From: Flavobacteriales bacterium
GTDB taxonomy: Bacteria; Bacteroidota; Bacteroidia; UBA10329
Assembly (NCBI GenBank): GCA_021739695.1
Contig: JAIPBM010000021.1
Coordinates: 4,472 to 68,471, forward strand
Length of the DNA stretch: 64,000 nt
Reading direction: 5' to 3'
The stretch's first letter is position 1, and every line of letters begins with the position of its first letter. A program made the position numbers and the translations under genes. Under the pieces are notes generated by a model, which saw nothing but the letters and a program-made list of their open reading frames with translations, was not told where the DNA came from and did not search any database. Positions 2,382 to 50,072 of the stretch are shown here, in pieces.

Positions 2382-2391
2382 TCTAAAGACC

Positions 2392-2583
2392 ATGCTAAAG
2401 TTCATTAAACACCATATGGAGACCATTTCTGGGATAGAGATTTATCCGATTATCTCCTTCATTATTTTCTTCACATTCTTCGTGGCTGTGCTGGCTTACT
2501 TGGTCATCCAACGCAAGGAGTACTTCGATCAACTGAGCATGATGCCGTTGGACGAGGAAGCAGGTTCAACCAATAAAATCTAA
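2392..2583 (+). CDS. CcoQ-like small membrane subunit of the cbb3 oxidase
   Basis: 63-aa single-TM protein (IYPIISFIIFFTFFVAVLAYLVIQ) sitting between ccoNO and ccoP, which is the canonical ccoQ position. Assignment is by position and topology only. Confidence 0.5.
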   Translation: MLKFIKHHMETISGIEIYPIISFIIFFTFFVAVLAYLVIQRKEYFDQLSMMPLDEEAGSTNKI

Positions 2584-2586
2584 ATC

Positions 2587-3768: not shown

Positions 3769-3820
3769 TTCCGCAAGTTTTGAATAGGATAATCATATCC
3801 GACCCCGAAATGAAATAGAC

Positions 3821-10437: not shown

Positions 10438-10491
10438 TGTACGGTAAAGATGGTCAAATGTTCAAGTTTTCGACCAATCGACTGCTGGCAC

Positions 10492-25568: not shown

Positions 25569-28500
25569 ATGAGAAATTTTCTTTTCCTATTTGCCGCGCT
25601 CGTACTTGGCACGGTTCAATTTGCGCAAGCGCAGCAGCTCAAATCCTTTACTCACGACAACGAAAAGTACATCACCGAATTGCAAGAGTTCTTTGCAATG
25701 GGCGATCCAAAAGCAGCCAAAAAGCTGATTGAGGAAACCTTTCTTCCTGTTTGGAATAGCGGTCATTACAGTCCGCAGCAGAAGGAGCGGGTTTACAAGA
25801 TTTCGGATCTGATGTTGAAGGAGAAAAAAAAGGCGGTCGATTTTGAAAACTACCTTTTTGCACTCATGAGTTTTGCAAAGAGTATGAAGCCAGCTTCCGA
25901 CTTTGATGCATTTCATGACGGTTTGGAAAAAACCATCACGCAACTTTCAAGAAAGCAGTTTACCGAGTATTTGGAAGTGTGTAAAAGCCTCTTTACTGAT
26001 TACATTCTGTACGATTCTCAGGCCGTGAAATGGGTGGCCAAATTTGATGCTTACAAGATTCAATTCGATTCTTTGCCCAAGATTGTTTTTGGGAAATTGG
26101 ACCTGAAAGCATATTCCAAGCGCGATAGTTCAATCATCTACGGAACGCAAGGAGTCTATTATCCAACACTTACCAAATGGGTGGGCAAAGGCGGAAAAAT
26201 AGATTGGAGCCGTGCTGGATTCGACCCCGCAAAAACCTACGCTGATATTGGGAATTATACCGTTGATGCAACCAAATCAACCTATTCAATAGACTCAGTT
26301 ACGTTCTATCATCCCGACTATCTTGATAGACCACACATTGGTGTTCTCACCGAAAAAATTCTGGCCGATGTGGACGAAGAATCGGCTTCTTATCCTCGAT
26401 TCGATTCTTACGACAAGCGTATCCTTATCAAAGACATGTATAAGGATATCGATTACTCGGGAGGGTTTTCGCAGCACGGAATCAAGTTCATTGGTTCTGG
26501 AGATGCGGATCAAGATGCCACGCTGATATTCAAAAAGATGAATCACCTCACGAAGAAGAATGAAAATTTCATTGCTGCTCGATCTAAATCGTTTGTGATC
26601 CGTCCTGATAAAGTGCTTTCCAAAAAGGCGGAAGTGTCTTTCTATTACGAAGGCGATTCCATTTATCATCCTGGAATTCGGGTGGATTACAATGTGGAAA
26701 AACACGAAGTGGTCTTTGCAAAAGACAAGGAAGGTTCGGGCAGAAGTCCGTTTTACGATACCTACCATAAGGTTGATATGCACGTGGATGCCATTACTTG
26801 GAATATGAGTGCCGATTGGATGACGCTTCAAAATACCACTGGTGGAGCAGAAAGTAGCGCCATGTTTGAGTCTGATGATTATTACGATGAATACCGCTAC
26901 GACCGAATCAGAGGAACTGCGGATATTCATCCACTTTGGAAAATCCGGAACTATGCGAAGGAATTGGGCATGGAGGAGCTGACAGTAGAACAGGTAGCGC
27001 GTCTGTTTAAGTCAGATATCAGTGAAACAAAGGTTTTTCTCATCAATCTGTCAAACTCAGGTTTCATGACATACAACTACGAGAAAGACCTTGTAATGCT
27101 CAAGCCTCGTCTGCATCACTATGTCTTGGCCCGTTCGAAAAAGACAGATTACGACATTCTTCAATTCGAGTCTATTGTAGATGGTTTGCCAAATGCCAAA
27201 CTGAATCTATTGAACTGGGATATGGACATGAATGGAGTTGGTCGCATTTTCCTTTCCGATTCGCAGGATGTGATCGTCTTTCCATACGAGCAGGAATTGA
27301 CACTGAAAAAGAATCGGGATTTCCTTTTCAACGGAAAAGTAGTTGGTGGTAGATTGGACTTCTTTGGAAGCGATTTTTACTTCAGCTATGACGATTTCAA
27401 AATCACCATGAACCAAGTGGATTCATTGCGATTGAAGGTTCCGGATGGCACGCCTGATGACAGCGGAAGGCAACCTTTGCGAGCGGTTAAAACGGTACTT
27501 CGCGATCTGAAAGGAGAACTCTTGGTGGATAGGCCCGATAACAAATCAGGACTCAAAGATCATCCTCGGTATCCCGTGTTCAATAGTACGGACGATTCGT
27601 TCGTGTATTATGACAAGCGTTCAATTCAAGATGGTGCTTATAAGAAAGAGGAGTTTTACATGCACCTTAAGCCATTCAGTATAGACAGTTTGGAGAATTT
27701 TACCAAAGAAGGTTTGGCCTTTGATGGGAATTTTGTGTCAGCCGGTATTTTTCCGGATTTCGAGGAAACGTTAAGACTTCAACCAGACTTTTCTCTTGGT
27801 TTTGTGCGAGAAACTCCGCCAGAAGGTTTAGATACTTATGGTGGAAAAGGAAAATACAAAGCCACTATCAAGCTAAGTCATGAGGGTTTGAGAGGAGATG
27901 GAAATCTGGAATATTTGACATCCATTTCCAAGTCAGATGATTTCCTTTTCTATCCAGATTCTGTAAACGGAGTTGCTCAAGATTTTGTGATAAACAAGCA
28001 AAAGAGCCCAACGCCATATCCGCCAGTTACGGGTGTTGATAGTCGCGTGCATTGGGAGCCGAAACTAGACCACTTCTATGCCTATAAGCTTCAAAACCCC
28101 TTCGATATGTATGAGGGCGAAGTGACACATCATGGCGGCCTCGACCTTTCTCCAAAAGGTCTTGATGGTTTCGGGAATCTCGATTTTGCTGATAGCTACA
28201 TGCGGTCGAACAGATTCAATTTCAAATACAGGGATTTCCATGCGGATACTGCGGATTTCAAATTGAAAGGCGCTTCAGAAAACTCATACGCTTTCAAAAC
28301 AAGCAACGTGAGAATGGACATCAGTTTGGATGACCGACAAGGAAAGTTCAAGTCGAACACGGGAGGCGATTTTGTTGATTTTCCAGTGAATCAATACATC
28401 TGCTACATTGATGAGTTCAAGTGGAACATTGATCAGAAGAATATTGATGTAGTGTCTGATGGCGAAGGCTCACGCTACGTATCCACCAACCCGAAGCAGG

Positions 28501-29987
28501 ATTCGCTTGAGTTCCGCTCTCCGTTAGCAAAATTCAATCTTGATAATTTCATCATTTCCGCCAAAAAAGTGGACCACATTGATGTGGCCGATGCAATCAT
28601 TTATCCTGATAGTGGAAACGTGACCATCCGTGAACAGGCTGCGATGGATCCGTTGGGAAATTCGCGGATTGTGGCCAACCGAATCACCAAGTTTCATACA
28701 TTCTATGAGTCTACTGTAAATGTGCTGGGCAAATGGAAGTACAACGCTAAAGGCAAGTACGATTATGAAGATGTAACGGGTAAAAAACAATTGATTGAAT
28801 TTGCCAAGATCGGTATCGACTCGGCTGGGCAGACTTTTGGTGAGGGAATCATTGCTGAAGAAGCAGCCTTTACGCTCAGTCCAAATTTCGATTACAAGGG
28901 CAAGGCAAAATTGTTTGCCAGTCAGGAGTTTCTCACCTACGATGGTAGTACGCGAATCAAACATGATTGTCCTGGTATTACCCGCGACTGGTTAGCGTTT
29001 GATGCAGATATCGATCCGAAAAACATCTATATTCCGATACCTGCTGAGCCGAAAGATGCCAATGGAATGCCGATGTCTTCAGGTGTTGTTATCAGTAAAG
29101 ATTCTACAACGGTTTATCCAACGTTCCTTTCCAAGAAGATCAAACCGAATGATATTGATATTGTGGCAGCAGAAGGCTATCTCCATTTCGATAACGAGAG
29201 TCAAGAATACCGGATTTCTAACAAGGAAAAATTGCAAGGTGCCGTTGTTGGTGGCAATTACTTGAGTTTAAGCAACGAGTGTATTGCCAGAGGTCAAGGA
29301 AAATTGAACATGGGAATGGATTTCGGGCAAGTTGAATTGACTCCGCTCGGAACGGTTGAGCACAACATGAATAATGATTCAACCAAATTCAATCTATTCC
29401 TTGGTATCGACTTTTTCTTTAATGATGAGTCGCTGAGGATCATGGCCGAGAAGATCAGTAATCACTTCCCTCCATTGGATGCTGTGTTCTATGGAACGGA
29501 ATATGAAAAAGCCTTGATCGAGTTGGTTGGAAAAGACGAAACAACCAAGCTCATCCAAGAGCTCAATCTTTATGGAACTTTCAAAAAGCTACCGAAGGAG
29601 CTTGAAAAAACCATGTTCCTTACAGATGTGGAACTTGTTTGGAACCCAACTACTGGATCGTATCGCTATAAAGGATTCATCGGTATTTCCAGTGTTGGAA
29701 AATTCCAGGTCAATAAGATGGTTTACGGATTGGTTGAGCTCACCAAAAAGCGTAATGGCGATGAACTTTCGGTTTATTTTGAGCCGAGTGATGACAGTTG
29801 GTTTTTCTTCAACTATAAACGAGGAATGCTTGGTGCATTCTCTTCGAACGATGATTTCAACGCACAGATTCGTGATACGAAAGACGATAAGCGCACACAG
29901 AAAGGGGAGAAGGGAAAGCCAAATATTACCTACGTCCTATCAACAGCGATCCAAAGAAGAAATTTTGTGCGTTCGTTTGAAGAATGA
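25569..29987 (+). CDS. large secreted uncharacterised protein (1472 aa)
   Basis: Uninterrupted 4.4 kb ORF with a signal peptide (MRNFLFLFAALVLGTVQFAQAQ), rich in Tyr, Asp, Lys and Phe. I recognise no catalytic motif. Confidence 0.6.
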   Translation: MRNFLFLFAALVLGTVQFAQAQQLKSFTHDNEKYITELQEFFAMGDPKAAKKLIEETFLPVWNSGHYSPQQKERVYKISDLMLKEKKKAVDFENYLFALMSFAKSMKPASDFDAFHDGLEKTITQLSRKQFTEYLEVCKSLFTDYILYDSQAVKWVAKFDAYKIQFDSLPKIVFGKLDLKAYSKRDSSIIYGTQGVYYPTLTKWVGKGGKIDWSRAGFDPAKTYADIGNYTVDATKSTYSIDSVTFYHPDYLDRPHIGVLTEKILADVDEESASYPRFDSYDKRILIKDMYKDIDYSGGFSQHGIKFIGSGDADQDATLIFKKMNHLTKKNENFIAARSKSFVIRPDKVLSKKAEVSFYYEGDSIYHPGIRVDYNVEKHEVVFAKDKEGSGRSPFYDTYHKVDMHVDAITWNMSADWMTLQNTTGGAESSAMFESDDYYDEYRYDRIRGTADIHPLWKIRNYAKELGMEELTVEQVARLFKSDISETKVFLINLSNSGFMTYNYEKDLVMLKPRLHHYVLARSKKTDYDILQFESIVDGLPNAKLNLLNWDMDMNGVGRIFLSDSQDVIVFPYEQELTLKKNRDFLFNGKVVGGRLDFFGSDFYFSYDDFKITMNQVDSLRLKVPDGTPDDSGRQPLRAVKTVLRDLKGELLVDRPDNKSGLKDHPRYPVFNSTDDSFVYYDKRSIQDGAYKKEEFYMHLKPFSIDSLENFTKEGLAFDGNFVSAGIFPDFEETLRLQPDFSLGFVRETPPEGLDTYGGKGKYKATIKLSHEGLRGDGNLEYLTSISKSDDFLFYPDSVNGVAQDFVINKQKSPTPYPPVTGVDSRVHWEPKLDHFYAYKLQNPFDMYEGEVTHHGGLDLSPKGLDGFGNLDFADSYMRSNRFNFKYRDFHADTADFKLKGASENSYAFKTSNVRMDISLDDRQGKFKSNTGGDFVDFPVNQYICYIDEFKWNIDQKNIDVVSDGEGSRYVSTNPKQDSLEFRSPLAKFNLDNFIISAKKVDHIDVADAIIYPDSGNVTIREQAAMDPLGNSRIVANRITKFHTFYESTVNVLGKWKYNAKGKYDYEDVTGKKQLIEFAKIGIDSAGQTFGEGIIAEEAAFTLSPNFDYKGKAKLFASQEFLTYDGSTRIKHDCPGITRDWLAFDADIDPKNIYIPIPAEPKDANGMPMSSGVVISKDSTTVYPTFLSKKIKPNDIDIVAAEGYLHFDNESQEYRISNKEKLQGAVVGGNYLSLSNECIARGQGKLNMGMDFGQVELTPLGTVEHNMNNDSTKFNLFLGIDFFFNDESLRIMAEKISNHFPPLDAVFYGTEYEKALIELVGKDETTKLIQELNLYGTFKKLPKELEKTMFLTDVELVWNPTTGSYRYKGFIGISSVGKFQVNKMVYGLVELTKKRNGDELSVYFEPSDDSWFFFNYKRGMLGAFSSNDDFNAQIRDTKDDKRTQKGEKGKPNITYVLSTAIQRRNFVRSFEE

Positions 29988-31585: not shown

Positions 31586-34500
31586 GTGAAACGACTTCTA
31601 CTCTTATTCTCAACCATATTTTTTCTTGGATTCCAAAATGCTTCAGCAACACATATTGTTGGTGGTGAGCTCGTGTACAATTACCTTGGAAATAGCCAAT
31701 ATGCCGTAACACTTGTGATTTACCGCGACTGTCTAAGTGGTACTGCGGATTTTGATGATCCTGCTGCTGTCGGTATTTTCAATTCGAGTGGAACGCTACT
31801 TCAGAATCTGAATTTCAACCTTGATTCGGTTGTTTCTATACAATCATCAATCAACTCGAGCTGTGTAACAGCCCCTAGTAATGTTTGTACAGAAGCGGGT
31901 TATTACACCGAGATTGTCACTTTACCGCCAATAGCTGGAGGTTACACTATTTCGTATCAACGTTGCTGCAGAAATGCAGTTGTTCAGAATATTCAAAACC
32001 CCGGTGATGTGGGTGCTACATATGTAGCTACCATTCCAGGAACTGAGTCAAGTCCTGCAAATAGTAGCCCATTCTGGAATAATCTTCCCCCGTTGTACGT
32101 CTGTGTGAATTTGCCGTGGCAGTTCAATCATTCTGCGTTTGATGCCGATGGTGATGTGTTGGTTTACTCCTTGTGCAACCCTTACGAAGGCGCAACGGCC
32201 AATGCTCCTCAACCAGATCCGCCAGCCGCACCACCTTACACACCTATAACTTGGGCTGCGCCTTATAGTTTAACTGATATGATGGGCGGAACTGTTCCAT
32301 TAACCATTGATCCAGTAACAGGCGAGCTAAATGCCACTCCCACCAGCGTTGGTACTTATGTTATTGGTATGTGTGTGCAAGAATATCGTAACGGTGTTTT
32401 ACTAGGAGAAACCAGACGAGGAATTCAAGTTAATGTGGTGAATTGTCAAGCACCCGTTGCTTTTCCAGATGATGTCAACGAAATCTCACCGACCTCATTC
32501 ATTAATTGTACTGAATTTGTAGAGTTCAATGCCTTTAATTCTGCAGGATTCAGTGTGTGGTGGGATTTTGGAGATCCAACTACGACAAGTGACCAGTCCA
32601 CAATCCAAAATCCTACTTGGACTTACCCAGGGCCGGGGGTTTACGACCTAACACTCGTTGTCTACAATCCGATCAACCCTAACGACCCACTTTGTACTGA
32701 TACTGTGGTTCAGCAGGTTACGGTTCAAGACACGGTTATTCCTGATGCAGGACCAGATCAATCAACATGCCCTGGTATTCCTGTCCAAATTGGAACACCG
32801 GCAGTACCAGGATGGACCTATCAGTGGACGCCTGCTACAGGCTTGGATAATGCAAATATTGCTCAGCCAACTGCGAGCATTACCCAACAAATAGTTTATA
32901 CTTTGACCGCGACAGATGCGGTTGGCTGTTCGGGAAGTGATGCCGTCACCATCGGTCTTCTTTCAAACCCTGGCGCTAATGCAGGGGCCGATGTACAGAT
33001 CTGTTCCGGGGATTCGGTTCAGCTGAATGCCACTGGAGGTGTTGATTATTTGTGGTTCCCGTTCACTTTCATCGATGACAACACAATCGCGAACCCGTTC
33101 GTGTTCCCACCTACATCTACCGAATATATTGTCGGAGTGACCAGTAGTGATGGTTGCGTTGGGGTGGATACGGTTTTGGTTGAAGTATTGAGTGCTCAAC
33201 TGCAAGTTTCCAGTAATGTGGATATCTGTTTCGGAGATTCCACGCAACTTTCTGCTAGTGGGGCAGTCACTTATTTGTGGAGTCCTAATCAGGATATCAG
33301 TGATGTGAACAGTTCTTCACCATTTGTTTCTCCAACGGTAACCACTATTTACACGGTTGATGCTATTACTGGCAATGGATGTGAAGTTTCTGGGGCTGTA
33401 GAAGTAACGGTTAATGCTTTGCCGAACGTCAATGCTGGCTTAGATGTATCGATTTGCGATGGTGAATCTACGTTGCTCGGAGCAATCGGAGCTAATTCAT
33501 ACACTTGGAGTCCTTCTGCTTCTTTGGATAATCCAAATAGCCAAGGACCGCTTGCTTCGCCAGTATCAACTACAACATATGTGGTCGAAGGCACAAGTTC
33601 TTTAGGCTGTACAGACCTAGACACAGTCGTAGTGACGGTCAACGCATTGCCACTTGTCAATGCGGGAGTGGATCAGACCCTCTGTCTTGGACAGTCAGTA
33701 CAATTGACAGTCACAGGAGCAGATACCTATCAGTGGACACCATCAACTGGACTTAGTGACTCCAACATTCCGAACCCGACCGCTCAACCAACGCAGGCGA
33801 CCACCTATGTTGTGGAAGGTACAGATGTGAACGGCTGCACAGGCACCGATACGGTTCTGGTCGATGTGTTCACCGTAAGTGCCACGGCCGATACGACCAT
33901 CTGCATCGGAGATCAGGCACAACTTGGAGCATTTGGCGGCACCAGCTGGAGTTGGACACCGACCACGGGACTATCCGATCCGAGCGCACAGTTTCCAACA
34001 GCTGATCCAACAACAACTACAACCTATACGGTAATAGCGGATGACGGCACAGGCTGTCTGGCCAGCGATGATGTCACAGTAACGGTCAGTCCGCTTCCGA
34101 CCGTATTTGCAGGCTTCGACCAAGGCGTATGTGCAGGCAATCAGGCACAGTTGAACGCCACAGGCGGAGTAGGCTACGTATGGACACCGGCCGCAGGACT
34201 TAGCAACCCGAACATCTCGAACCCTGTTGTCACCTTCAGTACAGACACCATCACCTATCAAGTGACCGTCACGGATAATATCGGATGCTCCAATACCGAT
34301 GCGGTGACCGTCTGGCAAGAGCCACTACCAGAGGCATTGGCAGGTCCCGACACCACCATCTGCGTGGGCGGAAGTGTTGAACTGTTCGCCACAGGCGGAC
34401 AGACCTACATCTGGAGCCCTACCTCAGGATTGAACAACCCGACATCACAGAACCCCACGGCCACTCCGCTCACCACGACCACCTACACGGTCACGGTAGG

Positions 34501-36487
34501 TCAGCAGAGCGGAAACATCGTTTTCAACGGAGATTTCTCACAGGGCAATGTGGGCTTCGGAAGCGACTACACCTATTATAGTGGCGGACCGAATATGGGT
34601 GAAGGGCTGTATGCCGTTGAGACAGATGCGAATGCGGTTCACAACGCTTTCCAAGGCACAGGTCACACCGGCAACGCCCCACAGGACAGTTTCATGGTGG
34701 TGAACGGAGCAGGCATACCGAACCAGAATGTCTGGTGTCAGACCGTATCGGTGAGCCCTAACACGGACTATTATTTTGGAGCATGGGTAAGCACAATGGT
34801 TGCCAGCAGCCCAGCCATCCTTCAGTTCTCGATCAACGGACAGGTACTCGGCTCACCGTTCAGCGCCCCGTTCAACACGAACAACTGGGTACAGTTCTTC
34901 CAGACATGGAACTCAGGCAATGCCACCACAGCCACCATCTGCGTGGTGAACCAGAACACCAACACGGGCGGAAACGACTTCGGATTGGACGACATCACGT
35001 TCAGCACGTTCTGCACGAACACGGCCGAAGTGACCGTTACAGTGAACCCACTTCCACAGGCAGATGCAGGAGCCGATCAGGCCATCTGTATCGGAGAGAC
35101 GACCCAGTTGGAAGGATCTGGAGGAAGCACCTATGAGTGGGTTCCACCGATAGGGATCAGCGATCCGACCGACCCGAACACGGACGCATCACCGATCACC
35201 ACCACCAATTACACGCTCATCGTAAGAGACAACATCGGTTGCGAGGCCACCGATCAGATGACGCTGACGGTGAACCCATTGCCACAGGCCAATGCAGGTC
35301 CCGACCATGCGATATGCATCGGAGAGAGCGTAGTACTACAAGGCTCTGGCGGCACGGTCTATCAATGGTTCCCGACCACGTATCTGGACGATCCGACCGC
35401 ACAACTGCCGATCTCCACAGCAGAGGCGACCACGACCTACACGCTAACGGTGATAGACAATAACGCGTGTGTGAACACGGATCAGACCACAGTGACGGTA
35501 AATCCGCTACCGATAGTGGATGCAGGACAGGACAGCATGATCTGCGCCAATGCCACCATCGTGCTACAGGCAAGCGGAGCAAACACATATCTGTGGAGTC
35601 CACTTGTGGGTCTGAGCGATCCTCAAAGTGCGAGTCCATCAGCATCACCGACCAACGGAACGACCTATTACGTGACCGGAACGGATGTGAACGGTTGTTC
35701 GAATATGGATTCGGTTTCAATCATGATTTTCGGTGTTGCTGCCAATTCGGGCGACTACGTGATCTGTCTGAATGATAGTGTTCAAGCAACGGTTCTTGGC
35801 GGGTCAAGTTATGTTTGGACACCAACTTTAGGTGTAAGTGATTCAACCTCCAATGCGCCATATCTTAGCCCCGAAACGAGTACGAACTACATCATTTCGG
35901 TTACAAGTGCATTTGGATGTTTGGCTGAAACCGAAGTCAATGTTCAGGTTCTAAGCTTACCCATTGCAGGGTTCACTGCTGCGTTTGAACCAAGCTGTGA
36001 TGGGATTTTCGCAAGTTTCAACAACACATCTGAAAACACACAAACCTATTCTTGGAATTTTGGTGACGGCACGTTTTCCTCCTCAATGGAACCAACTCAC
36101 ATTTATGCAGTTGGATCTGGAAATGTGGTGACCTTGGTGGCTTACAATAATGATAGTCTGTGCGTGGATTCAATGACCATTGATTATTCCGGTCAATGGT
36201 TTGGGAATGATAGCGTGACCATTGATTATTCAAATGTCTTCACCCCAAATTTTGATGGGATAAACGATTGTTTCAAACCCGATTTTGACGGTCGGTTCAG
36301 CGAATGTTACGAACTGAAGGTTTATAATCGATGGGGCGAGCTCTTGTTTGAATCAGTTGCTGGGCAGAATCACTGTTGGGACGGAAGGACCAAAGGTGGC
36401 AATATGGTACCCGAAGGAACGTATTACTACATATCCGTCATTCATGGCATGGATCATGCGGGATACGTGACGGTCATTTATCAATGA
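31586..36487 (+). CDS. giant T9SS cargo adhesin (1633 aa) with a conserved N-terminal domain, about 16 SprB-type repeats, an internal CBM4/9-like insert and a C-terminal gliding-motility/T9SS type B sorting domain
   Basis: Signal peptide followed by an N-terminal domain (HIVGGELVYNYLG ... YRDC ... EYRNGVLLGETRRGIQVNVVNC). The body is repeated roughly 77-aa units (AGxDxxIC.G.S.QL.A.GG..Y.W.P..GLS.PN..NP.A.P..TTTY.V..TD.NGC..D.V.V.V). The C-terminus (YSNVFTPNFDGINDCF ... YNRWGELLFES ... EGTYYY) matches the Bacteroidota gliding-motility-associated C-terminal sorting domain. Confidence 0.85.
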   Translation: MKRLLLLFSTIFFLGFQNASATHIVGGELVYNYLGNSQYAVTLVIYRDCLSGTADFDDPAAVGIFNSSGTLLQNLNFNLDSVVSIQSSINSSCVTAPSNVCTEAGYYTEIVTLPPIAGGYTISYQRCCRNAVVQNIQNPGDVGATYVATIPGTESSPANSSPFWNNLPPLYVCVNLPWQFNHSAFDADGDVLVYSLCNPYEGATANAPQPDPPAAPPYTPITWAAPYSLTDMMGGTVPLTIDPVTGELNATPTSVGTYVIGMCVQEYRNGVLLGETRRGIQVNVVNCQAPVAFPDDVNEISPTSFINCTEFVEFNAFNSAGFSVWWDFGDPTTTSDQSTIQNPTWTYPGPGVYDLTLVVYNPINPNDPLCTDTVVQQVTVQDTVIPDAGPDQSTCPGIPVQIGTPAVPGWTYQWTPATGLDNANIAQPTASITQQIVYTLTATDAVGCSGSDAVTIGLLSNPGANAGADVQICSGDSVQLNATGGVDYLWFPFTFIDDNTIANPFVFPPTSTEYIVGVTSSDGCVGVDTVLVEVLSAQLQVSSNVDICFGDSTQLSASGAVTYLWSPNQDISDVNSSSPFVSPTVTTIYTVDAITGNGCEVSGAVEVTVNALPNVNAGLDVSICDGESTLLGAIGANSYTWSPSASLDNPNSQGPLASPVSTTTYVVEGTSSLGCTDLDTVVVTVNALPLVNAGVDQTLCLGQSVQLTVTGADTYQWTPSTGLSDSNIPNPTAQPTQATTYVVEGTDVNGCTGTDTVLVDVFTVSATADTTICIGDQAQLGAFGGTSWSWTPTTGLSDPSAQFPTADPTTTTTYTVIADDGTGCLASDDVTVTVSPLPTVFAGFDQGVCAGNQAQLNATGGVGYVWTPAAGLSNPNISNPVVTFSTDTITYQVTVTDNIGCSNTDAVTVWQEPLPEALAGPDTTICVGGSVELFATGGQTYIWSPTSGLNNPTSQNPTATPLTTTTYTVTVGQQSGNIVFNGDFSQGNVGFGSDYTYYSGGPNMGEGLYAVETDANAVHNAFQGTGHTGNAPQDSFMVVNGAGIPNQNVWCQTVSVSPNTDYYFGAWVSTMVASSPAILQFSINGQVLGSPFSAPFNTNNWVQFFQTWNSGNATTATICVVNQNTNTGGNDFGLDDITFSTFCTNTAEVTVTVNPLPQADAGADQAICIGETTQLEGSGGSTYEWVPPIGISDPTDPNTDASPITTTNYTLIVRDNIGCEATDQMTLTVNPLPQANAGPDHAICIGESVVLQGSGGTVYQWFPTTYLDDPTAQLPISTAEATTTYTLTVIDNNACVNTDQTTVTVNPLPIVDAGQDSMICANATIVLQASGANTYLWSPLVGLSDPQSASPSASPTNGTTYYVTGTDVNGCSNMDSVSIMIFGVAANSGDYVICLNDSVQATVLGGSSYVWTPTLGVSDSTSNAPYLSPETSTNYIISVTSAFGCLAETEVNVQVLSLPIAGFTAAFEPSCDGIFASFNNTSENTQTYSWNFGDGTFSSSMEPTHIYAVGSGNVVTLVAYNNDSLCVDSMTIDYSGQWFGNDSVTIDYSNVFTPNFDGINDCFKPDFDGRFSECYELKVYNRWGELLFESVAGQNHCWDGRTKGGNMVPEGTYYYISVIHGMDHAGYVTVIYQ
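32740..35960 (+). repeat. intragenic tandem array of SprB-type protein repeats, about 231 bp each (diverged at the DNA level)
   Basis: Recurrent translated pattern with conserved Cys, GG..Y.W.P, TTTY and TD.NGC. Confidence 0.6.
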
Positions 36488-37206
36488 GACAATTACCCGT
36501 TTTTCTTTTTCTCCTTTTCCCGTTCTCAGTATTCGCTCAAAGCTCGGACACAGCCAAGTTTGTACTTGGGAAAGTTGAATACGCCCAGCATTCGGAGTTT
36601 GTAAAAATCCCACAAGCCTACGCCAATAAGGAAGGAATGTATCTGCGGAAAGAAGCCTTGGACGCATTCATTCTGATGCGAAAGAAAGCGCAGACTGATG
36701 GCGTGAATCTGACCATCATTTCTGCTTGTAGGAACTTTAATCATCAGAAAAGTATTTGGGAAGCCAAGTGGAATGGCAGCCGTAAAGTAGGAGGGAAGGA
36801 TCTGAGCCAATCAATTCCTAATGCTGCGGAACGCGCCAAGGAAATCCTAAAATACAGTTCTATGCCAGGTACTTCGCGCCATCATTGGGGAACAGACATT
36901 GATGTCAATTCCTTGAGTTCAGCTTATTTTGAATCGGGAAAAGGGAAGAAGGAATATGAATGGCTGCGTGATAATGCGCTGGAATTTGGATTCTGTCAGG
37001 TTTATTCGGAGAAAGGAAACGAGCGGAAACACGGCTACGAGGAGGAAAAATGGCACTGGAGTTATGTGCCGTTATCTTCCCGATACTTGGCTTACTACAA
37101 ACGAAATATCAAGCAAACGGACATACAAGGGTTTGATGGGGCAGATGCGCTTCCGTTCAGCGAGATCCGAAAATATGTATTAGGTATTTCTACCGATTGC
37201 AAATAA
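36484..37206 (+). CDS. peptidase M15B-like D-alanyl-D-alanine carboxypeptidase family protein (VanY-like)
   Basis: Signal peptide (MRQLPVFLFLLFPFSVFAQS) and the zinc-ligand motifs SRHHWGTDIDV and EEEKWHWSY typical of M15B/VanY. The start ATG overlaps the adhesin stop (ATGA), which suggests translational coupling. Confidence 0.7.
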   Translation: MRQLPVFLFLLFPFSVFAQSSDTAKFVLGKVEYAQHSEFVKIPQAYANKEGMYLRKEALDAFILMRKKAQTDGVNLTIISACRNFNHQKSIWEAKWNGSRKVGGKDLSQSIPNAAERAKEILKYSSMPGTSRHHWGTDIDVNSLSSAYFESGKGKKEYEWLRDNALEFGFCQVYSEKGNERKHGYEEEKWHWSYVPLSSRYLAYYKRNIKQTDIQGFDGADALPFSEIRKYVLGISTDCK

Positions 37207-42336: not shown

Positions 42337-42420
42337 GTTGATATGTTCGTGGCTTTATGAAGCAACCGAAGCGTTCATAGGTCGTTATTGAAATGGCTGT
42401 CGCCCAGCCATTCGCTTGAA

Positions 42421-45400
42421 ATGAAAAACCGTTATTTCCGTCTGCTTTTTGCAGTGATATGTTCCATAGTTTTTTCTGCCAATAAGGCTGAGGCTTCGCA
42501 CGCCTTGGGAGCAGAGATCACGTACGAATGTTTGGGAGGCGATCAGTATCGAGTGAGGTTGGTTTTTTACCGTGATTGTGGCGGAATTGCAGCACCAACG
42601 GCCCCGGCATTGACTCTTTCATCTTCATGTGGAAATCAGAGTCTGGCAATGACATTGCAACCACCAGAACCAGCTTATCCACCGTTCGATCAGTATTTGG
42701 CGCCTTACGAACTGCCTGTTTATTGTTCTGCTTCTGATTGTGGAAGTGGTAATAATCCTGGTTTGCAAGAATACGTGTATGAGGCAACGGTAACGCTTCC
42801 TCCATGTGCAGACTGGACATTTAGCTATGACCTTTGCTGTCGCAGTGCTGCTATCAATACGATAAGCGCACCTGGTAATCAGGATATTTATGTCAGTGCT
42901 TTTCTAAATAATCAAGCTGCACCATGCAACAGTTCTCCTGAGTTTGACGTGGCAGCTCGTGGTTTCATATGCTTAAACCAAGACAATACGATTTTGGCAA
43001 CCGCCACTGATCCCGATGGCGATCTTCTTGTTTACAGCGTTTACACTCCATGGCACAATCCAGGTCAGAGCGTTAATTACACAGGCGGATTTAATCCAAA
43101 TAATCCGCTTTCTAATTCCAACTACACGTTTACTGATGGTGTGATTGAAGTTCATCCAACTTCCAATGGTCAGATCACTGTAATTGGTGTGATGGTGGAA
43201 GAGTATCGGAACGGTGTGCTCATCGGACGTGTGGTTCGAGACATGCAGGTGCGCGTGATCAATAACTGTCCACAAAATCCAGGCAACGATTTCGACATTG
43301 ATCAGGATGGGATATTTGACGGGAACAACTTCGTGATTTGTGCGAACAACGAGATCCAATTGGATGTGTATCTGAACAACACCCTTCCCAACGCCAATTA
43401 CAATATGGTTTTGGAAAATCTAGCGGATTTCCCTGGCGCCACATTCAATACAGTGCCAAGTGGAACAGCTCCAGGAGGCATTGTCGGTCAGTTCTTTTGG
43501 ACTCCTGATCAAGGTTCCATCGGCTCCAACCAAACACTCGTATTCACTGCGTTCGATGATAACTGTCCCGTGGTCGGATTTTCCAATTTCACCTACGATT
43601 TTACCATCACCGGCCTCGAATTATTAGTTGATATTGATACGGTGGCCATTTCCTGTGCGGATTCGGTTCAAATGGTTGCCACCGTTTCCAATGGATCACC
43701 ACCCTATAGTTTTCTCTGGAACGATGGATATGCTGGCGCAAGTAGATGGGTTGGGGCCGGACAATATATTGTTGAAGTTACAGACAATGAAGGCTGCACA
43801 GGAAGTGATACGATAGAGGTCTATTACGTAGATGATCCTCAAGGCGCATTTTTTGACCCAACAGGTGCGTGTGTCGATTCGGCCGTTGCTTTTGTGGATC
43901 AATCTTTCAGTAATTATCCTGCCAATTTGCCACCAATTACCATTGTTGATTGGGAATGGGATTTTGGAGATGGATCAACGCTTACAGGTGTCCAAAATCC
44001 AACCCATGCATACGATACGGCAGGATTGTATCAAGTACAACTTATTGTGACGAACGATCTTGGATGTGTGGATACTGCTTGGAGTTCCGTTTGGGCCAAT
44101 CCACCTCCGAGAGTAGATTTTGAATTTGAAAATGTGTGCACCGACACACTTTTTACCTTCACTGATCTTACTACAATAGATACTGGCCAAGTGGTCTCCT
44201 GGGCATGGGATTTTGGAGATGGAACAGCTCCAGTTCAACTTCCAAGCACTACGCATCAATTTGCCAACACAGGTTATTTCGATGTGACCTTGGCTGCGGT
44301 TTCAGATAGCGGTTGTCCCGCATATCTCACACAACAAGTGTATTCATTTCCCTTGCCGATTGGCGATTTTTCACCTACGGATGTGTGCTATGGTAACGCA
44401 TCGAGTTTTCTTGATCTTACCACAGTTTCAGCAGGTTCGGTAGAAGGTTGGCTGTGGGATTTTGGAGATGGAACGATTTCCTCCACGCTTCAAAATCCGG
44501 TTCATACATACGGAGATACAGGCGTTTTCAACGTTACACTTATCTCAACTACCGATTCTGTCTGTCGCGATACCATTACCCAAAGCGTCATGGTTCACCC
44601 AAGTCCGGTAGCCGGATTTGTGAACGATACCGTGTGCGCAGAGCTGGAAATGACCTTCACTGATACAACTACCGTTCCTTCCGGAATTATTTCAAACTGG
44701 TCGTGGTATTTTGGAGATGGAGGTGTTTCTGCGGTTCCCAATCCAATTCACGTGTATTCAATTGGTGGTCAATATACCAGTTCGCTTGTGGTTCAGTCCG
44801 ACCTCGGTTGTATAGATAGCATCGCCAAAACGGTTATTGTTTATCCGAAACCACTAGCAGAATTCACAGCTTTGGCTGCTTGTGAAAATGATGAAAACAT
44901 ATTCATCGATCAGTCGAATGTGGCTGCCGGATCTCAAGTTGTTGGTTGGGATTGGGACTTTGGTGATGGTATGGGGACATCTTCAGTCCAATTTCCAACC
45001 TACGTATATTCAGGAAGTGGCGTTTATACAGTAACGCTAATGACAGAAACCGATTTCGGTTGTCGTGATACCGTTCAGCACACTACCGAAGTGTATGACC
45101 TGCCGATTTCTGATTTCACTTTCAGTGATGTCTGTTTGTACGACCCGGTCATTTTTAATAACACTTCAAGCATTCCGTCTGGTTCAATTGTAATCAATGA
45201 GTGGGATTTTGGAGATGGTGATATTTCTTCCGCTCAGCAGCCGGTCGGGCAGCCGTATCCCGCTGCGGGATTCTATGATGTATCACTGATTACGCAATCA
45301 AATCATGGTTGCCGAGATACCTTGGTTCAGACAGTTGAGTTATTTCCTGTGCCAACAGCCATGTTCACCTTCGATTCTGTGTGTTTTCCATTTGCTACCA

Positions 45401-46668
45401 ATTTCGTTGATCTTTCGAACGTAACGGGGCTGTATAGTGTAACCGATTGGGACTGGAAGTTTGGCGATGGAATTGTGAATGCAGGAATTCAAAATCCGAC
45501 ACACGCTTACACATCGTGGGGCGATTATTCTGTTCAATTAACAGTTACGACAGACGCTGGTTGCGAGGCAGATACCACACTATCGCCAGTTCGCGTGTAT
45601 CCTAAACCGCATGCTGATTTCAGCAATGAATTGGCCAATTGTTTGAACGACACTACTGTTTTCGAAGACCTATCAACATTGGAGAACGGTCCTGAAGATG
45701 TTCTAGCTACTTGGAGCTGGAATTTTACAGATGGTTACGGAAGCAATGATCAGAATACCGATCACGTTTTTGGAACACACGGTTTTTACAACGTAATTCT
45801 GGGTGTGGAGACCAACCATGGCTGCCAAGACACAACCATCATTCCAGTAGAAATCTACCCGTTGCCAGATGTCAAATTTACGGTCGACACGAATTTAGGA
45901 TGCCAACCTTTCCGTGTTCAATTCACGGATTTGACCGAGATTCCGAATCCTTATCTACTCACAACGTGGGAATGGAATTTTGGCGATGGCCCTGGAATTA
46001 TTTCTACGCAGAATCCAGTTCATACCTATAATGACGAAGAGCTAGGCGATTTTGAGACTGGAGTTTATTCCATTTGGTTGCGGGTTACTTCGGCCAATGG
46101 CTGTGTTTCCGACACCATCTATCAGGATTACATAACGGAGTATCCGAAACCGGATGCGCTGTTCTCGGTGGATCCGATGCGCACCGAGATTCTTTTTCCG
46201 AATTTCAATATTACCGATCTAGCATCTCCCAACGTGGTCAGTTGGACTTACGAATGGGGCGATGGCTCCACTTCGAATCTTCAGAATCCTGCCCACGAAT
46301 ATGCCGATACTGGTCATTATGAGATTATCCAATACGTAGTAACGGAATTCGGATGCAAGGATACCGCCAAGGCGATAGTTATTGTAGATCCTGAGTTCAG
46401 ATTTTATATTCCTTCAGCCTTTACTCCGGATGCTGATGGCGTGAATGAAGAGTTTTTCGGTTCAGGAATTGGAATCATCGAATATCAAATGCGCATTTAC
46501 ACCCGATGGGGTCAACAGATCTTTGAATCCAATGAATATGATTTCCATTGGGATGGCACGTTCATGGGAGAGCAAGTTCAAGAGGGCGTATACGTGTACC
46601 AGTTCAATATTTTGGATATCAAAGGCGAACCTCATTTGTATCGTGGTGGTGTAACATTATTTAGGTAG
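42421..46668 (+). CDS. giant T9SS cargo protein (about 1415 aa): N-terminal domain paralogous to the 31586 gene, about 11 PKD-type repeats and a C-terminal T9SS type B sorting domain
   Basis: Signal peptide (MKNRYFRLLFAVICSIVFSANKAEA). N-terminal domain (HALGAEITYECLG ... YRDC ... EEYRNGVLIGRVVRDMQVRVINNC). Recurring W(D/E)FGDG ... NP.H.Y ... Y.V.L ... GC.D PKD units. C-terminus FYIPSAFTPDADGVNEEF ... YTRWGQQIFES ... EGVYVY. Start chosen at 42421 rather than 42388. Confidence 0.8.
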   Translation: MKNRYFRLLFAVICSIVFSANKAEASHALGAEITYECLGGDQYRVRLVFYRDCGGIAAPTAPALTLSSSCGNQSLAMTLQPPEPAYPPFDQYLAPYELPVYCSASDCGSGNNPGLQEYVYEATVTLPPCADWTFSYDLCCRSAAINTISAPGNQDIYVSAFLNNQAAPCNSSPEFDVAARGFICLNQDNTILATATDPDGDLLVYSVYTPWHNPGQSVNYTGGFNPNNPLSNSNYTFTDGVIEVHPTSNGQITVIGVMVEEYRNGVLIGRVVRDMQVRVINNCPQNPGNDFDIDQDGIFDGNNFVICANNEIQLDVYLNNTLPNANYNMVLENLADFPGATFNTVPSGTAPGGIVGQFFWTPDQGSIGSNQTLVFTAFDDNCPVVGFSNFTYDFTITGLELLVDIDTVAISCADSVQMVATVSNGSPPYSFLWNDGYAGASRWVGAGQYIVEVTDNEGCTGSDTIEVYYVDDPQGAFFDPTGACVDSAVAFVDQSFSNYPANLPPITIVDWEWDFGDGSTLTGVQNPTHAYDTAGLYQVQLIVTNDLGCVDTAWSSVWANPPPRVDFEFENVCTDTLFTFTDLTTIDTGQVVSWAWDFGDGTAPVQLPSTTHQFANTGYFDVTLAAVSDSGCPAYLTQQVYSFPLPIGDFSPTDVCYGNASSFLDLTTVSAGSVEGWLWDFGDGTISSTLQNPVHTYGDTGVFNVTLISTTDSVCRDTITQSVMVHPSPVAGFVNDTVCAELEMTFTDTTTVPSGIISNWSWYFGDGGVSAVPNPIHVYSIGGQYTSSLVVQSDLGCIDSIAKTVIVYPKPLAEFTALAACENDENIFIDQSNVAAGSQVVGWDWDFGDGMGTSSVQFPTYVYSGSGVYTVTLMTETDFGCRDTVQHTTEVYDLPISDFTFSDVCLYDPVIFNNTSSIPSGSIVINEWDFGDGDISSAQQPVGQPYPAAGFYDVSLITQSNHGCRDTLVQTVELFPVPTAMFTFDSVCFPFATNFVDLSNVTGLYSVTDWDWKFGDGIVNAGIQNPTHAYTSWGDYSVQLTVTTDAGCEADTTLSPVRVYPKPHADFSNELANCLNDTTVFEDLSTLENGPEDVLATWSWNFTDGYGSNDQNTDHVFGTHGFYNVILGVETNHGCQDTTIIPVEIYPLPDVKFTVDTNLGCQPFRVQFTDLTEIPNPYLLTTWEWNFGDGPGIISTQNPVHTYNDEELGDFETGVYSIWLRVTSANGCVSDTIYQDYITEYPKPDALFSVDPMRTEILFPNFNITDLASPNVVSWTYEWGDGSTSNLQNPAHEYADTGHYEIIQYVVTEFGCKDTAKAIVIVDPEFRFYIPSAFTPDADGVNEEFFGSGIGIIEYQMRIYTRWGQQIFESNEYDFHWDGTFMGEQVQEGVYVYQFNILDIKGEPHLYRGGVTLFR

Positions 46669-49600: not shown

Positions 49601-50072
49601 GCTAGATCCACGCATTAGGTTCACAAACACTACTTCAAATGGAGTTACGTATGTTTGGGATTTTGGTGACGGAGGATCGTCTACTGAAGCTAACCCGACC
49701 AATTCTTATCCTGCCGAAGGCGATTATGTGGTAACACTTTTGGCTGAAAATGGAATCTGCTCTGATGCCACAACTCGAATCGTTCATATAGACCCAGAAA
49801 CCTTCATTTATATTCCGAATGCGTTTACACCAAATGGAAACAGGTTAAACGATGGATTTACTGCGAAAGGGATTGGAATTGAGAAGTTTGAGATGACCAT
49901 CTTCAATCGATGGGGAACAGAATTGTACTATACTGCTCGGATAGATGAACCTTGGGATGGAATTTACAAAGGCATGCTGCTACCATCAGACAGCTACGTA
50001 TATCGAATTGAGATCGTAGACGTGAAAGGGGAAAGTAAAAAGTTTACTGGAAGTGTGAATTTGGTGCGCTAA
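46686..50072 (+). CDS. giant T9SS cargo protein (1128 aa): N-terminal L-type lectin-like domain, SprB-type repeats, PKD repeats and a C-terminal T9SS type B sorting domain
   Basis: Legume-lectin-like blocks (ADGIAFVLQP; LEVEVDTWPND; DHIAIMKNGDSNH; W.G.TGG). Three or more SprB-type repeats. About 8 PKD units (W.FGDG). C-terminus FIYIPNAFTPNGNRLNDGF ... FNRWGTELYYT ... DSYVYRIE. Start is uncertain (46686 or the Met at 46731). Confidence 0.8.
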   Translation: MGLIQFDKIFRFVFSMIAVILPLAGFGQYQINGNANQISCNCYQLTEDQPYSGGSVWNVNQINLNTPFNYNFEVWLGCSEWGADGIAFVLQPVNVTQGGGSSSLGYGGIVPSLEVEVDTWPNDVTMADPPQDHIAIMKNGDSNHGSANNLAGPVVASSTQPNIEDCAWHTVQVVWQPSVNTLAVFFDGVFRTSYTGDIINTIFGGSSQVYWGWTGGTGSASADQRFCNSILPDYTISNSTTCVGDQINFTDASLTSSGNITNYTWDFGDGTTGSGAPVSHTYSSAGNFNVNLSITTEGCSQDTVIPITIDPTPVVNLGPDLSICDGQTVQLNSPNTLGSGTYSWSPTTALSSASAPSPTSSTVSNINYNLTFTSSNGCSGSDNVQVIVNPLPVANAGQDQTMCEGVPVTLQASGGVSYNWLPAASLSNAAISNPSASPITSTTYTVTVTDANNCSNTDNVDITVEPAPILDAGQNQNVCEGDVVQLNAVGTGSFSWSPPTALSNTLIANPSASPSVTTTYLVTLTDANNCSSVDSIVVDVDPIPIADFPNPTPVCNGNAVQFNDNSTGTIVSYNWDFGDGTTGQGTNPTHVYPDLGTYTVTLTTLSANGCSATATGTAEVIDGPIPVFSLADGPDFCEQELLQITNSSFGPIVTYLWDFGDGTTSTAMVPNFSYSSFGTYTVSLTVGTADQCFNTSTEDVIVHPIPQAAFSSTPACFGEATGFTDSSIIPEGAVTGWEWTFGDGSNIAYGQTPTHTYTNFGAYQVRMIAQSAMGCRDTITQLVYVNPTPVVTIDAADICLGEEAVFVNSTVPNDNTIALWSWNFGDGQIGNQNSPAHQYQNYGTFTAELTATSDSGCIGSATTELEVYPYPVAGIGYSEFEGCTPVAINFVDESTIPNNYTIGSYEWIFGDGSTGSSASSSHTYVTPGIYDVSLIVTTQNGGCADTLTIAQAMSIYITPTANFNYRPTDATMLDPRIRFTNTTSNGVTYVWDFGDGGSSTEANPTNSYPAEGDYVVTLLAENGICSDATTRIVHIDPETFIYIPNAFTPNGNRLNDGFTAKGIGIEKFEMTIFNRWGTELYYTARIDEPWDGIYKGMLLPSDSYVYRIEIVDVKGESKKFTGSVNLVR

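What the first reader, a model, noticed from the sequence alone, without database searches (positions are those of the whole stretch)
33700..35700. A roughly 2-kb block of anomalous GC and codon usage inside the 1633-aa adhesin gene
The protein repeat type is continuous across the gene. The middle of the gene nonetheless switches to GC-rich codons (for example runs like caccacgaccacctacacggtcacggtagg; local GC about 57-63% against about 43-47% in the flanking repeats). Stop-free frames pile up here, seen as the many spurious overlapping ORFs at 34783-35775. This is the signature of intragenic mosaicism: repeat cassettes acquired by recombination from a higher-GC relative, or strong gene conversion.
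Basis: seen in the sequence. Interest (0 to 1): 0.6.

Follow-up and report, generated by a model that had tools for sequence, protein, structure and literature searches.

The report
GC-rich recombination cassette in adhesin gene
The GC-rich 2 kb inside this surface-adhesin gene is real, and it coincides with a cassette that related bacteria keep in two neighbouring genes and copy between them, so it more likely marks recombination between gene copies within the lineage than DNA imported from a GC-richer species.

Summary
Codons 725-1326 (nt 33758-35563) have GC3 0.635 against 0.380 in the rest of the gene. GC1 and GC2 are flat, and nothing else in the 64 kb looks like this.

The shift is almost purely synonymous, mainly T3 to C3. 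No donor was found: no homolog listed in three searches exceeds about 80% amino-acid identity to the block. In protein trees the block groups with the same low-GC relatives as the gene's tail.

The block matches a discrete cassette of about 656 codons: six Ig-like repeats with a nested CBM-like domain. Four related Flavobacteriales loci carry this cassette twice, in the adhesin gene and in the adjacent DUF7948 gene. Three of them contain 100%-identical conversion tracts.

The cassette's GC3 excess is +0.13 to +0.24 in four of seven lineages that have or had two copies. It is -0.04 to +0.05 in six single-copy lineages.

The window's gene is itself a hybrid: adhesin head, cassette, then a DUF7948-paralog tail. 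The DUF7948 gene is missing.

Best reading: a paralog recombination and gene-conversion cassette whose GC3 rose in situ through conversion-associated GC bias. Import from a GC-richer relative, synonymous selection and assembly collapse remain possible.

The parts
31586..36487 (+). 1633-aa T9SS type-B (CHU_C) cell-surface adhesin gene. It is a hybrid: adhesin-type head, shared cassette, DUF7948-paralog-type tail.
   Evidence: ORF and translation. Pfam Ig_7, PKD_4 and CHU_C, and NCBIfam TIGR04131. An identical protein is in NCBI as MCF8277668.1, from a Flavobacteriales MAG. Hybrid nature.
31586..33757 (+). Head: N-terminal domain (aa 1-380) plus Ig_7-like repeats R1-R5 (aa 381-724). Codon usage is host-like, with GC3 about 0.27-0.50.
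   Evidence: GC3 profile. The flank's codon usage correlates with the host at r=0.91. The N-domain is 77-83% identical to adhesin orthologs.
33758..35725 (+). GC3-rich cassette, aa 725-1380: Ig_7-like repeats R6-R11 with a nested domain. The ML-defined GC3 block is 33758-35563, the strongest core runs from about nt 34106 to 35545, and the shoulders are intermediate. The same segment is duplicated and gene-converted in relatives.
34511..35020 (+). Nested non-repeat beta-sandwich domain (aa 976-1145), inserted in a loop of repeat 8. It has a CBM-like fold, is the most conserved part of the protein, and contains the GC3 maximum (0.80-0.87).
   Evidence: No Pfam or PDB sequence match. AF2 model with pLDDT 81. 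Foldseek best PDB matches are CBM22, CBM4 and CBM16, E about 1e-6 to 1e-5, TM 0.45-0.55. Conservation is 77-88%. GC3.
35726..36484 (+). Tail: repeat R12, PKD domain and CHU_C sorting domain, of 'type B'. This is the tail type found after the cassette in cassette-bearing DUF7948 paralogs. GC3 is host-like at 0.42.
   Evidence: The tail tree splits type A from type B with bootstrap 100. The window is 71-81% identical to DUF7948-paralog tails and 61-66% identical to adhesin-ortholog tails.
36376..37206 (+). VanY-family gene immediately downstream (longest ORF; the true start is probably near 36484). The DUF7948-PKD-CHU_C gene that separates the adhesin gene from VanY in most relatives is absent here.
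   Evidence: Pfam VanY. Synteny in L001, L002, L003, L165, L166 and L168 compared with L163 and L164.

Best explanation
The block is a discrete cassette of about 2 kb: six Ig-like repeats carrying a nested CBM-like domain. In this clade of uncultured Flavobacteriales the cassette became duplicated into the neighbouring DUF7948 T9SS gene. Since then gene conversion has kept the two tandem copies alike.

The window's gene is the product of a crossover inside that cassette. It has the head of the adhesin gene and the tail of the DUF7948 paralog, and the DNA between them is deleted.

The GC-rich synonymous codon usage is confined to the converted tract. It most likely built up in situ as a by-product of repeated conversion, through GC-biased repair of heteroduplex mismatches, as is known for conversion tracts in mammals. 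The window keeps that signature as a single-copy relic.

Shown: the anomaly, the cassette, its duplication and conversion in relatives, the hybrid head and tail, and the restriction of GC3 excess to lineages with duplicated cassettes. Inferred: that conversion bias, rather than import or selection, raised GC3, and that the window's lineage once had two copies.
For: 1. The GC3 shift is synonymous and sharply local.
2. A full-length second cassette lies in the adjacent gene in L166, L006, L085 and L169.
3. The copies contain 100%-identical tracts of 1.3-2.1 kb, with identity falling to about 60% outside. Identity is 82-94% in L169.
4. Cassettes cluster by genome, bootstrap 100 in each of three genomes, while the tails split into two ancient types, bootstrap 100.
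5. The GC-rich zone is coextensive with the tract in L166, L006 and L169. The right edge falls at window codon about 1380 in all of these and in the window.
6. Cassette GC3 excess is +0.24 (window), +0.19/+0.20 (L166), +0.13/+0.20 (L006) and +0.15 (L169). In six single-cassette lineages it is -0.04 to +0.05. One-sided Mann-Whitney p=0.007, without phylogenetic correction.
7. The window block and the L166 block share one codon dialect (r=0.91), unlike either host's flanks (r=0.23).
8. The window has an adhesin-type head and a type-B tail, and the DUF7948 gene is missing.
9. Precedents: elevated GC3 in mammalian conversion tracts (PMC2720389), and an association between recombination and GC3 in bacteria (PMC4450053).
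Against: - No second cassette copy lies in the 64-kb window, and none is visible among database proteins. Conversion cannot be active here now unless a copy lies elsewhere in the genome or was collapsed in assembly.
- L085 has an active 100% tract but no GC3 excess. The fused relatives L163 and L164 have almost none.
- The shift is strand-asymmetric. Window-specific changes at conserved third positions are T>C 22 against A>G 3, and A3 is retained. Simple GC-biased conversion predicts symmetry.
- Synonymous sites are saturated between all sampled lineages, so the history cannot be traced directly.
- The lineage comparison is small and not phylogenetically independent.
Confidence: 0.5

Rival explanations
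1. The cassette was imported by homologous recombination from a related lineage with a GC-richer genome, and in L166, L006 and L169 it was then copied onto the paralog by conversion. The GC3 therefore reflects the donor's genome composition.
For: - The clade contains orthologous, syntenic genes in genomes of 48-58% GC (L165, L083, L003).
- The block's codon usage correlates better with L003 (r=0.71-0.81) than with its own flanks (r=0.23-0.36).
- The boundaries are fairly sharp.
- There is real phylogenetic incongruence elsewhere in the family. L166 groups with L006 in the block (BS 91-96) but with L001 and L002 in the tail (BS 96).
Against: - No candidate donor was found. Maximum block identity is about 80%, and the best matches are GC3-poor.
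- The window's cassette groups with L085, L163 and L164, as its tail does (BS 80-82 and 87-98).
- The dialect keeps low-GC-clade idiosyncrasies (GGA 0.42-0.46, GGG 0.04, CCC 0.08, A3 0.21). L003 shows GGA 0.10, CCC 0.54 and A3 0.11. No sampled higher-GC relative has C/(C+T) above G/(A+G) as the blocks do.
- GC1 and GC2 are barely shifted.
Confidence: 0.2
2. Selection on synonymous sites in the conserved functional core. U-ending codons, which are read by G:U wobble, are avoided for translational accuracy or speed, or for an mRNA-level property. This gives a T3-poor cassette whose GC3 depends on lineage.
For: - The change is specifically loss of T3, with A3 kept or raised (ACT 0.03, GCT 0.07, ATT 0.05; GGA, GCA and GTA are not reduced).
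- T3 is also depleted in the AT-rich cassettes of L163, L164 and L085 (0.26-0.33, against 0.31-0.44 in their flanks).
- The cassette is the most conserved part of the protein.
Against: - Single-cassette orthologs encode the same conserved cassette at 76-79% amino-acid identity, yet have flat GC3 and T3 of 0.36-0.41 (L001, L002, L168).
- The pattern tracks duplication state, not protein conservation.
- U-ending codons in four-fold boxes are often preferred in highly expressed genes of low-GC bacteria. This rests on general knowledge and was not tested here.
Confidence: 0.12
3. Assembly artefact in the metagenome-assembled contig. Either the block is a chimeric path through a co-occurring GC-richer relative, or two real cassette copies were collapsed, which falsely fuses the adhesin head to the DUF7948-paralog tail.
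For: - The source is a MAG.
- A direct repeat of 1.3-2.1 kb, as seen in relatives, is exactly what short-read assemblers collapse. The collapse would delete the intervening 5-6 kb (inference).
Against: - GC3-rich cassettes recur in independent assemblies (L166, L006, L169). L166 appears to belong to a Nanopore and Illumina hybrid-assembled MAG set (membership of that set is inferred from adjacent accessions).
- The same fused architecture, with VanY directly downstream, is seen in two other independent assemblies, L163 and L164.
- A two-junction chimera between sequences about 70% identical is unlikely.
- A collapse would alter copy number and the fusion claim, but not the GC3 finding.
Confidence: 0.08

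Closest known systems
Concerted evolution of paralogs by gene conversion with GC3-enriched conversion tracts (mammalian gene pairs BMP8A/B, DDX19A/B and TUBG1/2; histones; X-chromosome palindromes)
   Same: A bounded tract is kept near-identical between two neighbouring paralogs while the flanks diverge. The tract has higher GC3 than the flanks of the same genes (PMC2720389; PMC8981503, listed).
   Different: This case is bacterial, and the tract is an internal domain cassette of two otherwise different surface-protein genes. The enrichment is strand-asymmetric (T3 to C3 far more than A3 to G3) and is absent in one converting lineage (L085). In the window only one copy remains.
Recombination-associated GC enrichment in bacterial genomes (biased gene conversion hypothesis, Lassalle et al. 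2015)
   Same: Higher GC3 where recombination occurs, with the effect strongest at synonymous sites (PMC4450053).
   Different: That evidence is a genome-wide statistical difference between recombining and non-recombining core genes, arising from exchange between strains. Here the case would be a single locus, with a GC3 excess of 0.13-0.24, tied to conversion between paralogs within a genome.
Interspecies mosaic genes (for example pneumococcal pbp genes and neisserial penA; from general knowledge)
   Same: A block inside a gene whose sequence properties differ from its flanks because of homologous recombination.
   Different: Classical mosaic blocks are recognised by high divergence from the recipient's alleles and near-identity to a donor species. 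Here the block's protein phylogeny looks native and no donor exists in the databases searched.
Hybrid genes formed by unequal crossover between tandem paralogs, with deletion between direct repeats
   Same: The head comes from one paralog and the tail from the other. The junction lies in the shared homologous segment, and the intervening gene parts are lost.
   Different: The exact crossover point cannot be located, because the cassette is homogenised. An assembly collapse would mimic the same architecture.

Membership tests
T9SS type-B sorting-domain (CHU_C / TIGR04131) surface proteins with Ig_7 repeats | C-terminal CHU_C / Bac_Flav_CTERM sorting domain | tested here: met
   PF13585 at 2.7e-18 over aa 1547-1628, and TIGR04131 at 9.1e-13. 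Both are above the curated cut-offs.
T9SS type-B sorting-domain (CHU_C / TIGR04131) surface proteins with Ig_7 repeats | Ig-like CHU_C-associated repeats and PKD domains upstream of the sorting domain | tested here: met
   PF19081 Ig_7 at 1.3e-27 in 4 stretches, and PKD_4 at 8.9e-16. About 12 repeats of roughly 76 aa are delineated in the sequence.
Interspecies mosaic block (horizontally acquired segment) | The block's nearest relatives differ from those of the flanks | tested here: not met
   The cassette groups with L085, L163 and L164 (BS 80-82), as the tail does (BS 87-98). The head's placement is unresolved (BS 19).
Interspecies mosaic block (horizontally acquired segment) | An identifiable donor lineage much closer to the block than to the flanks | tested here: not met
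   Best block identity anywhere is about 79-80% at amino-acid level, and those matches are GC3-poor. The genome and metagenome contig scans returned only 5 and 4 orthologous loci.
Interspecies mosaic block (horizontally acquired segment) | Composition and codon usage deviate from the host | tested here: met
   GC3 is 0.635 against 0.380. Correlation with host codon usage is r=0.58 for the block and 0.91 for the flanks.
Paralog gene-conversion tract (concerted evolution) | A second homologous copy in the same genome | tested here: inconclusive
   None lies in the 64-kb window; the only hits are 26-43% identical generic Ig_7 matches at 47394-49313. None is visible in protein searches. A second copy is present in relatives L166, L006, L085 and L169. 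The rest of the MAG could not be read.
Paralog gene-conversion tract (concerted evolution) | Paralogs more alike than orthologs over a bounded tract, with identity collapsing at the edges | tested here: met
   Shown in relatives, not in the window. L166, L006 and L085 have 100%-identical tracts of 1.3-2.1 kb, flanked by about 60% identity. Cassette copies cluster by genome with BS 100.
Paralog gene-conversion tract (concerted evolution) | The window gene carries parts of both paralogs | tested here: met
   The head is adhesin type and the tail is type B (BS 100 split). The DUF7948 gene is absent.
GC-biased gene conversion | GC3 elevated in the converted tract relative to the flanks | tested here: met
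   Excess is +0.13 to +0.24 in the window, L166, L006 and L169, but 0 in L085.
GC-biased gene conversion | Strand-symmetric W-to-S bias (A>G as frequent as T>C) | tested here: not met
   Window-specific changes at conserved third positions are T>C 22 against A>G 3. A3 is unchanged while T3 falls from 0.39 to 0.16.
GC-biased gene conversion | G/C alleles segregate at higher frequency than A/T alleles in the tract; the bias is independent of codon optimality | not testable with these tools
   This needs population reads and the genome's highly expressed genes. Neither was available.

The most novel reading that the evidence does not exclude
This locus family is a locus-level, sharply bounded example of conversion-driven GC enrichment in bacteria. 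An adhesin domain cassette shuttled between two tandem paralogs gains 13-24 points of GC3 exactly over the converted tract. The strand-asymmetric T-to-C signature would point to a mismatch-specific, strand-specific repair bias (for example G:T to G:C) during ectopic conversion.
Probability: 0.35. Interest if true: 0.6.

Novelty: new member of a known kind. Interest (0 to 1): 0.42.

Why it matters
Evidence for GC-biased gene conversion in bacteria is so far mostly statistical and genome-wide. A set of natural loci offers a concrete test bed for whether, and how, bacterial recombination repair is GC-biased. In these loci the same cassette occurs in single-copy, two-copy converting, and fused states, and GC3 excess appears only in lineages with a duplication history.

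There is also a caution for annotation. A compositional island inside a gene is usually read as horizontal transfer. Here the protein phylogeny says the block is native, and the likelier cause is recombination between paralogs.

For the biology of these uncultured Flavobacteriales, the result identifies the conserved, CBM-like-bearing core of a T9SS adhesin as a module exchanged between two surface proteins.

Tried and rejected
- Exact look-up of the window protein, with V or M as first residue, found nothing. The identical protein P0001 turned up only through the homology search.
They gave only 5 and 4 true orthologous loci.
- The block-only protein search listed only proteins up to about 1.75x the query length, so it could not show long paralogs. 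A triple-cassette synthetic query worked around this and revealed cassette-bearing DUF7948 proteins, but no second copy from the window's MAG.
- Synonymous-codon identity and four-fold transversion distances were computed to trace the block's ancestry. Transversion fractions are 0.35-0.51 between the window and all other lineages, so synonymous sites are saturated and uninformative.
- Window-specific changes at codon positions 1 and 2 show only a weak, non-significant GC-ward trend in the block: 22:16 against 33:44 in the flanks.
- Conversion among the gene's own repeats is rejected. They are 60-80% identical at DNA level and share no long identical tracts.
- The extra ORFs in other frames and on the antisense strand are treated as by-products of GC richness. 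They were not tested further.
- No ribosomal or other highly expressed genes lie in the window, so the translational-selection dialect could not be tested.
- The window's context is ordinary chromosome (cbb3 oxidase, GuaA, FtsK and similar), with no mobile-element genes near the adhesin gene.
Full report
**1. The observation**

The gene at 31586-36487 (+) encodes a 1633-aa protein. In 300-nt windows GC is 0.54-0.58 between about 33650 and 35600. The rest of the gene is 0.39-0.51, and every 2-kb window elsewhere in the 64 kb is 0.41-0.46.

The rise is at third codon positions. GC3 goes from 0.27-0.47 to 0.55-0.83 while GC1 and GC2 stay flat. A two-breakpoint likelihood fit places the block at codons 725-1326 (nt 33758-35563). 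GC3 is 0.635 inside and 0.380 outside. The statistic 2*dlnL is 99, against at most 21 in permutations.

Third-position composition changes from A.23 C.21 G.17 T.39 to A.21 C.39 G.25 T.16. No other gene in the window has a 100-codon stretch above 0.65. The quoted string is at 34471-34500, and the extra ORFs in other frames are present.

Two details need correcting. The repeats are also interrupted by a 170-aa non-repeat domain nested in repeat 8.

**2. Anatomy**

The protein is a type IX secretion cargo. It has a C-terminal CHU_C / TIGR04131 sorting domain, PKD domains, and Ig_7 repeats. Reading the sequence gives:
- an N-terminal domain (aa 1-380);
- about twelve 76-aa Ig-like repeats;
- a domain (aa 976-1145) inserted in a loop of repeat 8;
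- a PKD domain;
- the sorting domain.

The nested domain has no Pfam or PDB sequence match. Its AlphaFold model (pLDDT 81) is a beta-sandwich. The best solved-structure matches are carbohydrate-binding modules CBM22, CBM4 and CBM16, at moderate TM scores of 0.45-0.55.

The surroundings are ordinary chromosomal genes: cbb3 oxidase, GuaA, FtsK and other T9SS proteins. The identical protein is in NCBI from a Flavobacteriales MAG.

**3. Is the block foreign?**

Dozens of full-length orthologs at 55-75% identity exist, in conserved synteny.
- Orthologs from genomes of 41-45% GC (L001, L002, L163, L164, L167, L168) have flat GC3 of about 0.35 across the gene.
- L003, from a 58%-GC relative, is uniformly about 0.63.

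The anomaly is therefore lineage-specific and not a property of the protein.

No donor appears. Nothing in the databases exceeds about 80% amino-acid identity to the block, and the closest matches are GC3-poor. In protein trees the block groups with L085, L163 and L164 (BS 82), as the C-terminal flank does (BS 98).

The block's codon usage resembles L003 more than its own flanks do. It nevertheless keeps the low-GC clade's habits: GGA is favoured, GGG and CCC are avoided, and A-ending codons are retained. Essentially only U-ending codons are removed.

Synonymous sites are saturated between all sampled lineages, so they cannot trace ancestry. The gene's own repeats are only 60-80% identical at DNA level, which excludes conversion among them.

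**4. What the block corresponds to**

Two other low-GC lineages, L166 and L006, also have GC3-rich blocks over nearly the same codons. All three share a right edge at window codon about 1380. GC profiles of those loci showed a second GC-rich 2-kb stretch in the neighbouring gene.

A tblastn search with window aa 725-1380 found a full-length second copy of the whole segment in four loci: L166, L006, L085 and L169. In L166, L085 and L169 the second copy lies inside the downstream DUF7948-PKD-CHU_C gene. In L006 the two copies lie in tandem genes.

The copies compare as follows:
- L166: 100% identical over about 1.3 kb, with 86-93% shoulders and about 60% outside.
- L006: 100% identical over about 2.1 kb.
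- L085: 100% identical over about 1.3 kb.
- L169: 82-94% identical, dropping to 59-70% just after the cassette.

In a cassette tree the two copies cluster by genome (BS 100 in each of three genomes). The regions after the cassette fall into two old tail types (BS 100). This is concerted evolution of an internal cassette by gene conversion.

The GC-rich zone is coextensive with the converted tract in L166, L006 and L169. L166 most likely belongs to a Nanopore and Illumina hybrid MAG set (inferred from adjacent accessions), which argues against a short-read artefact there.

**5. The window's gene is a hybrid**

The window's head is adhesin type. The N-domain is 77-83% identical to adhesin orthologs. 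Repeats up to about aa 840 match L166's adhesin copy, not its DUF7948 copy.

The tail (aa 1381-1633) is 71-81% identical to the tails of cassette-bearing DUF7948 paralogs. It is only 61-66% identical to adhesin tails, and it falls in the type-B clade.

The DUF7948 gene that lies between the adhesin gene and VanY in most relatives is absent here, as in L163 and L164. The simplest account is an unequal crossover within the shared cassette that deleted the adhesin tail and the DUF7948 head.

L085's two-copy tail is nested between the window and L163/L164 in the tail tree. The fusions in those two lineages therefore look independent (inference). An assembly collapse across a long identical repeat would mimic the same structure and cannot be excluded without reads.

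**6. Why GC-rich?**

The table gives cassette GC3 minus the GC3 of the rest of the same gene.

| Lineage | Cassette state | GC3 excess |
|---|---|---|
| window | fused | +0.24 |
| L166 | two copies | +0.19 / +0.20 |
| L006 | two copies | +0.13 / +0.20 |
| L169 | two copies | +0.15 |
| L085 | two copies | 0.00 |
| L163 | fused | +0.02 |
| L164 | fused | +0.05 |
| L001, L002, L165, L168, L083, L003 | single | -0.04 to +0.05 |

The one-sided Mann-Whitney test gives p=0.007. It is not corrected for phylogeny.

The window's block and L166's block use the same codon dialect (r=0.91). Elevated GC3 in conversion tracts is characteristic of mammalian paralog pairs and is attributed to GC-biased repair of heteroduplex (PMC2720389). 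Recombining bacterial genes also have higher GC3 (PMC4450053).

I therefore favour in-situ enrichment tied to conversion, with the window retaining it after fusion. Four weaknesses remain:
- L085 converts without enrichment.
- L163 and L164 lack enrichment.
- No second copy is seen in the window.
- The change is strand-asymmetric (T>C 22 against A>G 3; A3 kept), which simple biased conversion does not predict.

A mismatch-specific repair bias combined with strand-specific heteroduplex formation could produce that asymmetry. That is speculation.

**7. Rivals**

It lacks a donor, phylogenetic incongruence, and a matching genome-wide dialect.
- Selection against U-ending codons in the conserved core fits the T3-specific pattern, and it fits the milder T3 depletion in L163, L164 and L085. 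It does not explain why single-cassette orthologs that encode the same conserved cassette are flat.
- An assembly artefact could explain the fusion, but not the recurrence of GC3-rich cassettes in independent assemblies.

**8. Verdict**

The anomaly is real.

The thing itself is a hybrid adhesin gene carrying a paralog-conversion cassette, which is a new member of known kinds. What could make it notable is its use as a natural, sharply bounded test case for conversion-associated GC bias in bacteria. That reading is plausible but unproven here.

Noticed in passing
window 34511-35020: A 170-aa domain nested in a loop of an Ig-like repeat has no Pfam or PDB sequence match. It models confidently (pLDDT 81) as a beta-sandwich resembling CBM22, CBM4 and CBM16. 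It is the most conserved part of the protein (77-88% identity across orthologs).
   Followed up: partly
window 36174-36189 and 36216-36231: An exact 16-nt direct repeat (TGACCATTGATTATTC) 42 nt apart, encoding a duplicated 'TIDYS' motif just upstream of the CHU_C domain (family D17).
   Followed up: no
window 25569-29987: A 1472-aa ORF just upstream of the MORN-repeat genes has no Pfam match. A gene of the same length (1472 aa) lies at the equivalent position in L001, at 402-4820.
   Followed up: no
window 42388-46668 and 46686-50072: Two more T9SS CHU_C surface proteins lie here, one with about 10 PKD domains and one with an N-terminal L-type lectin domain plus PKD and Ig_7. Their GC3 (0.39-0.40) is below the host mean of 0.45, like the flanks of the adhesin gene.
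   Followed up: no
L083 about 9900-10500 (window codons about 1301-1550): In this 49%-GC relative, the tail of the orthologous gene has GC3 0.65-0.76, against 0.36-0.64 in the rest of the gene. This is a different intragenic GC3 step in the same gene family.
   Followed up: no
L166 7261-9261 (8218-8291 against 9640-9713): The L166 adhesin (P0002 group, about 1809 aa) carries an additional, diverged copy of the CBM-like insert and adjacent repeats upstream of the converted cassette. It is 78% identical at DNA level over 74 nt and 43% at amino-acid level over the cassette. This explains the group's extra 180 aa.
   Followed up: partly
L166 639-4331: Phage-type integrase, HTH_17 and AAA_25 genes lie immediately upstream of the MORN genes and the adhesin locus in this relative. 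This suggests an integrated element next to the locus.
   Followed up: no
L163, L164 and L085 cassettes: In these AT-rich relatives the cassette is depleted in T3 (0.26-0.33 against 0.31-0.44 in the flanks) and enriched in A3 (0.29-0.31), without being GC-rich. This could be a decayed form of the GC3-rich state, or a sign of selection against U-ending codons.
   Followed up: partly
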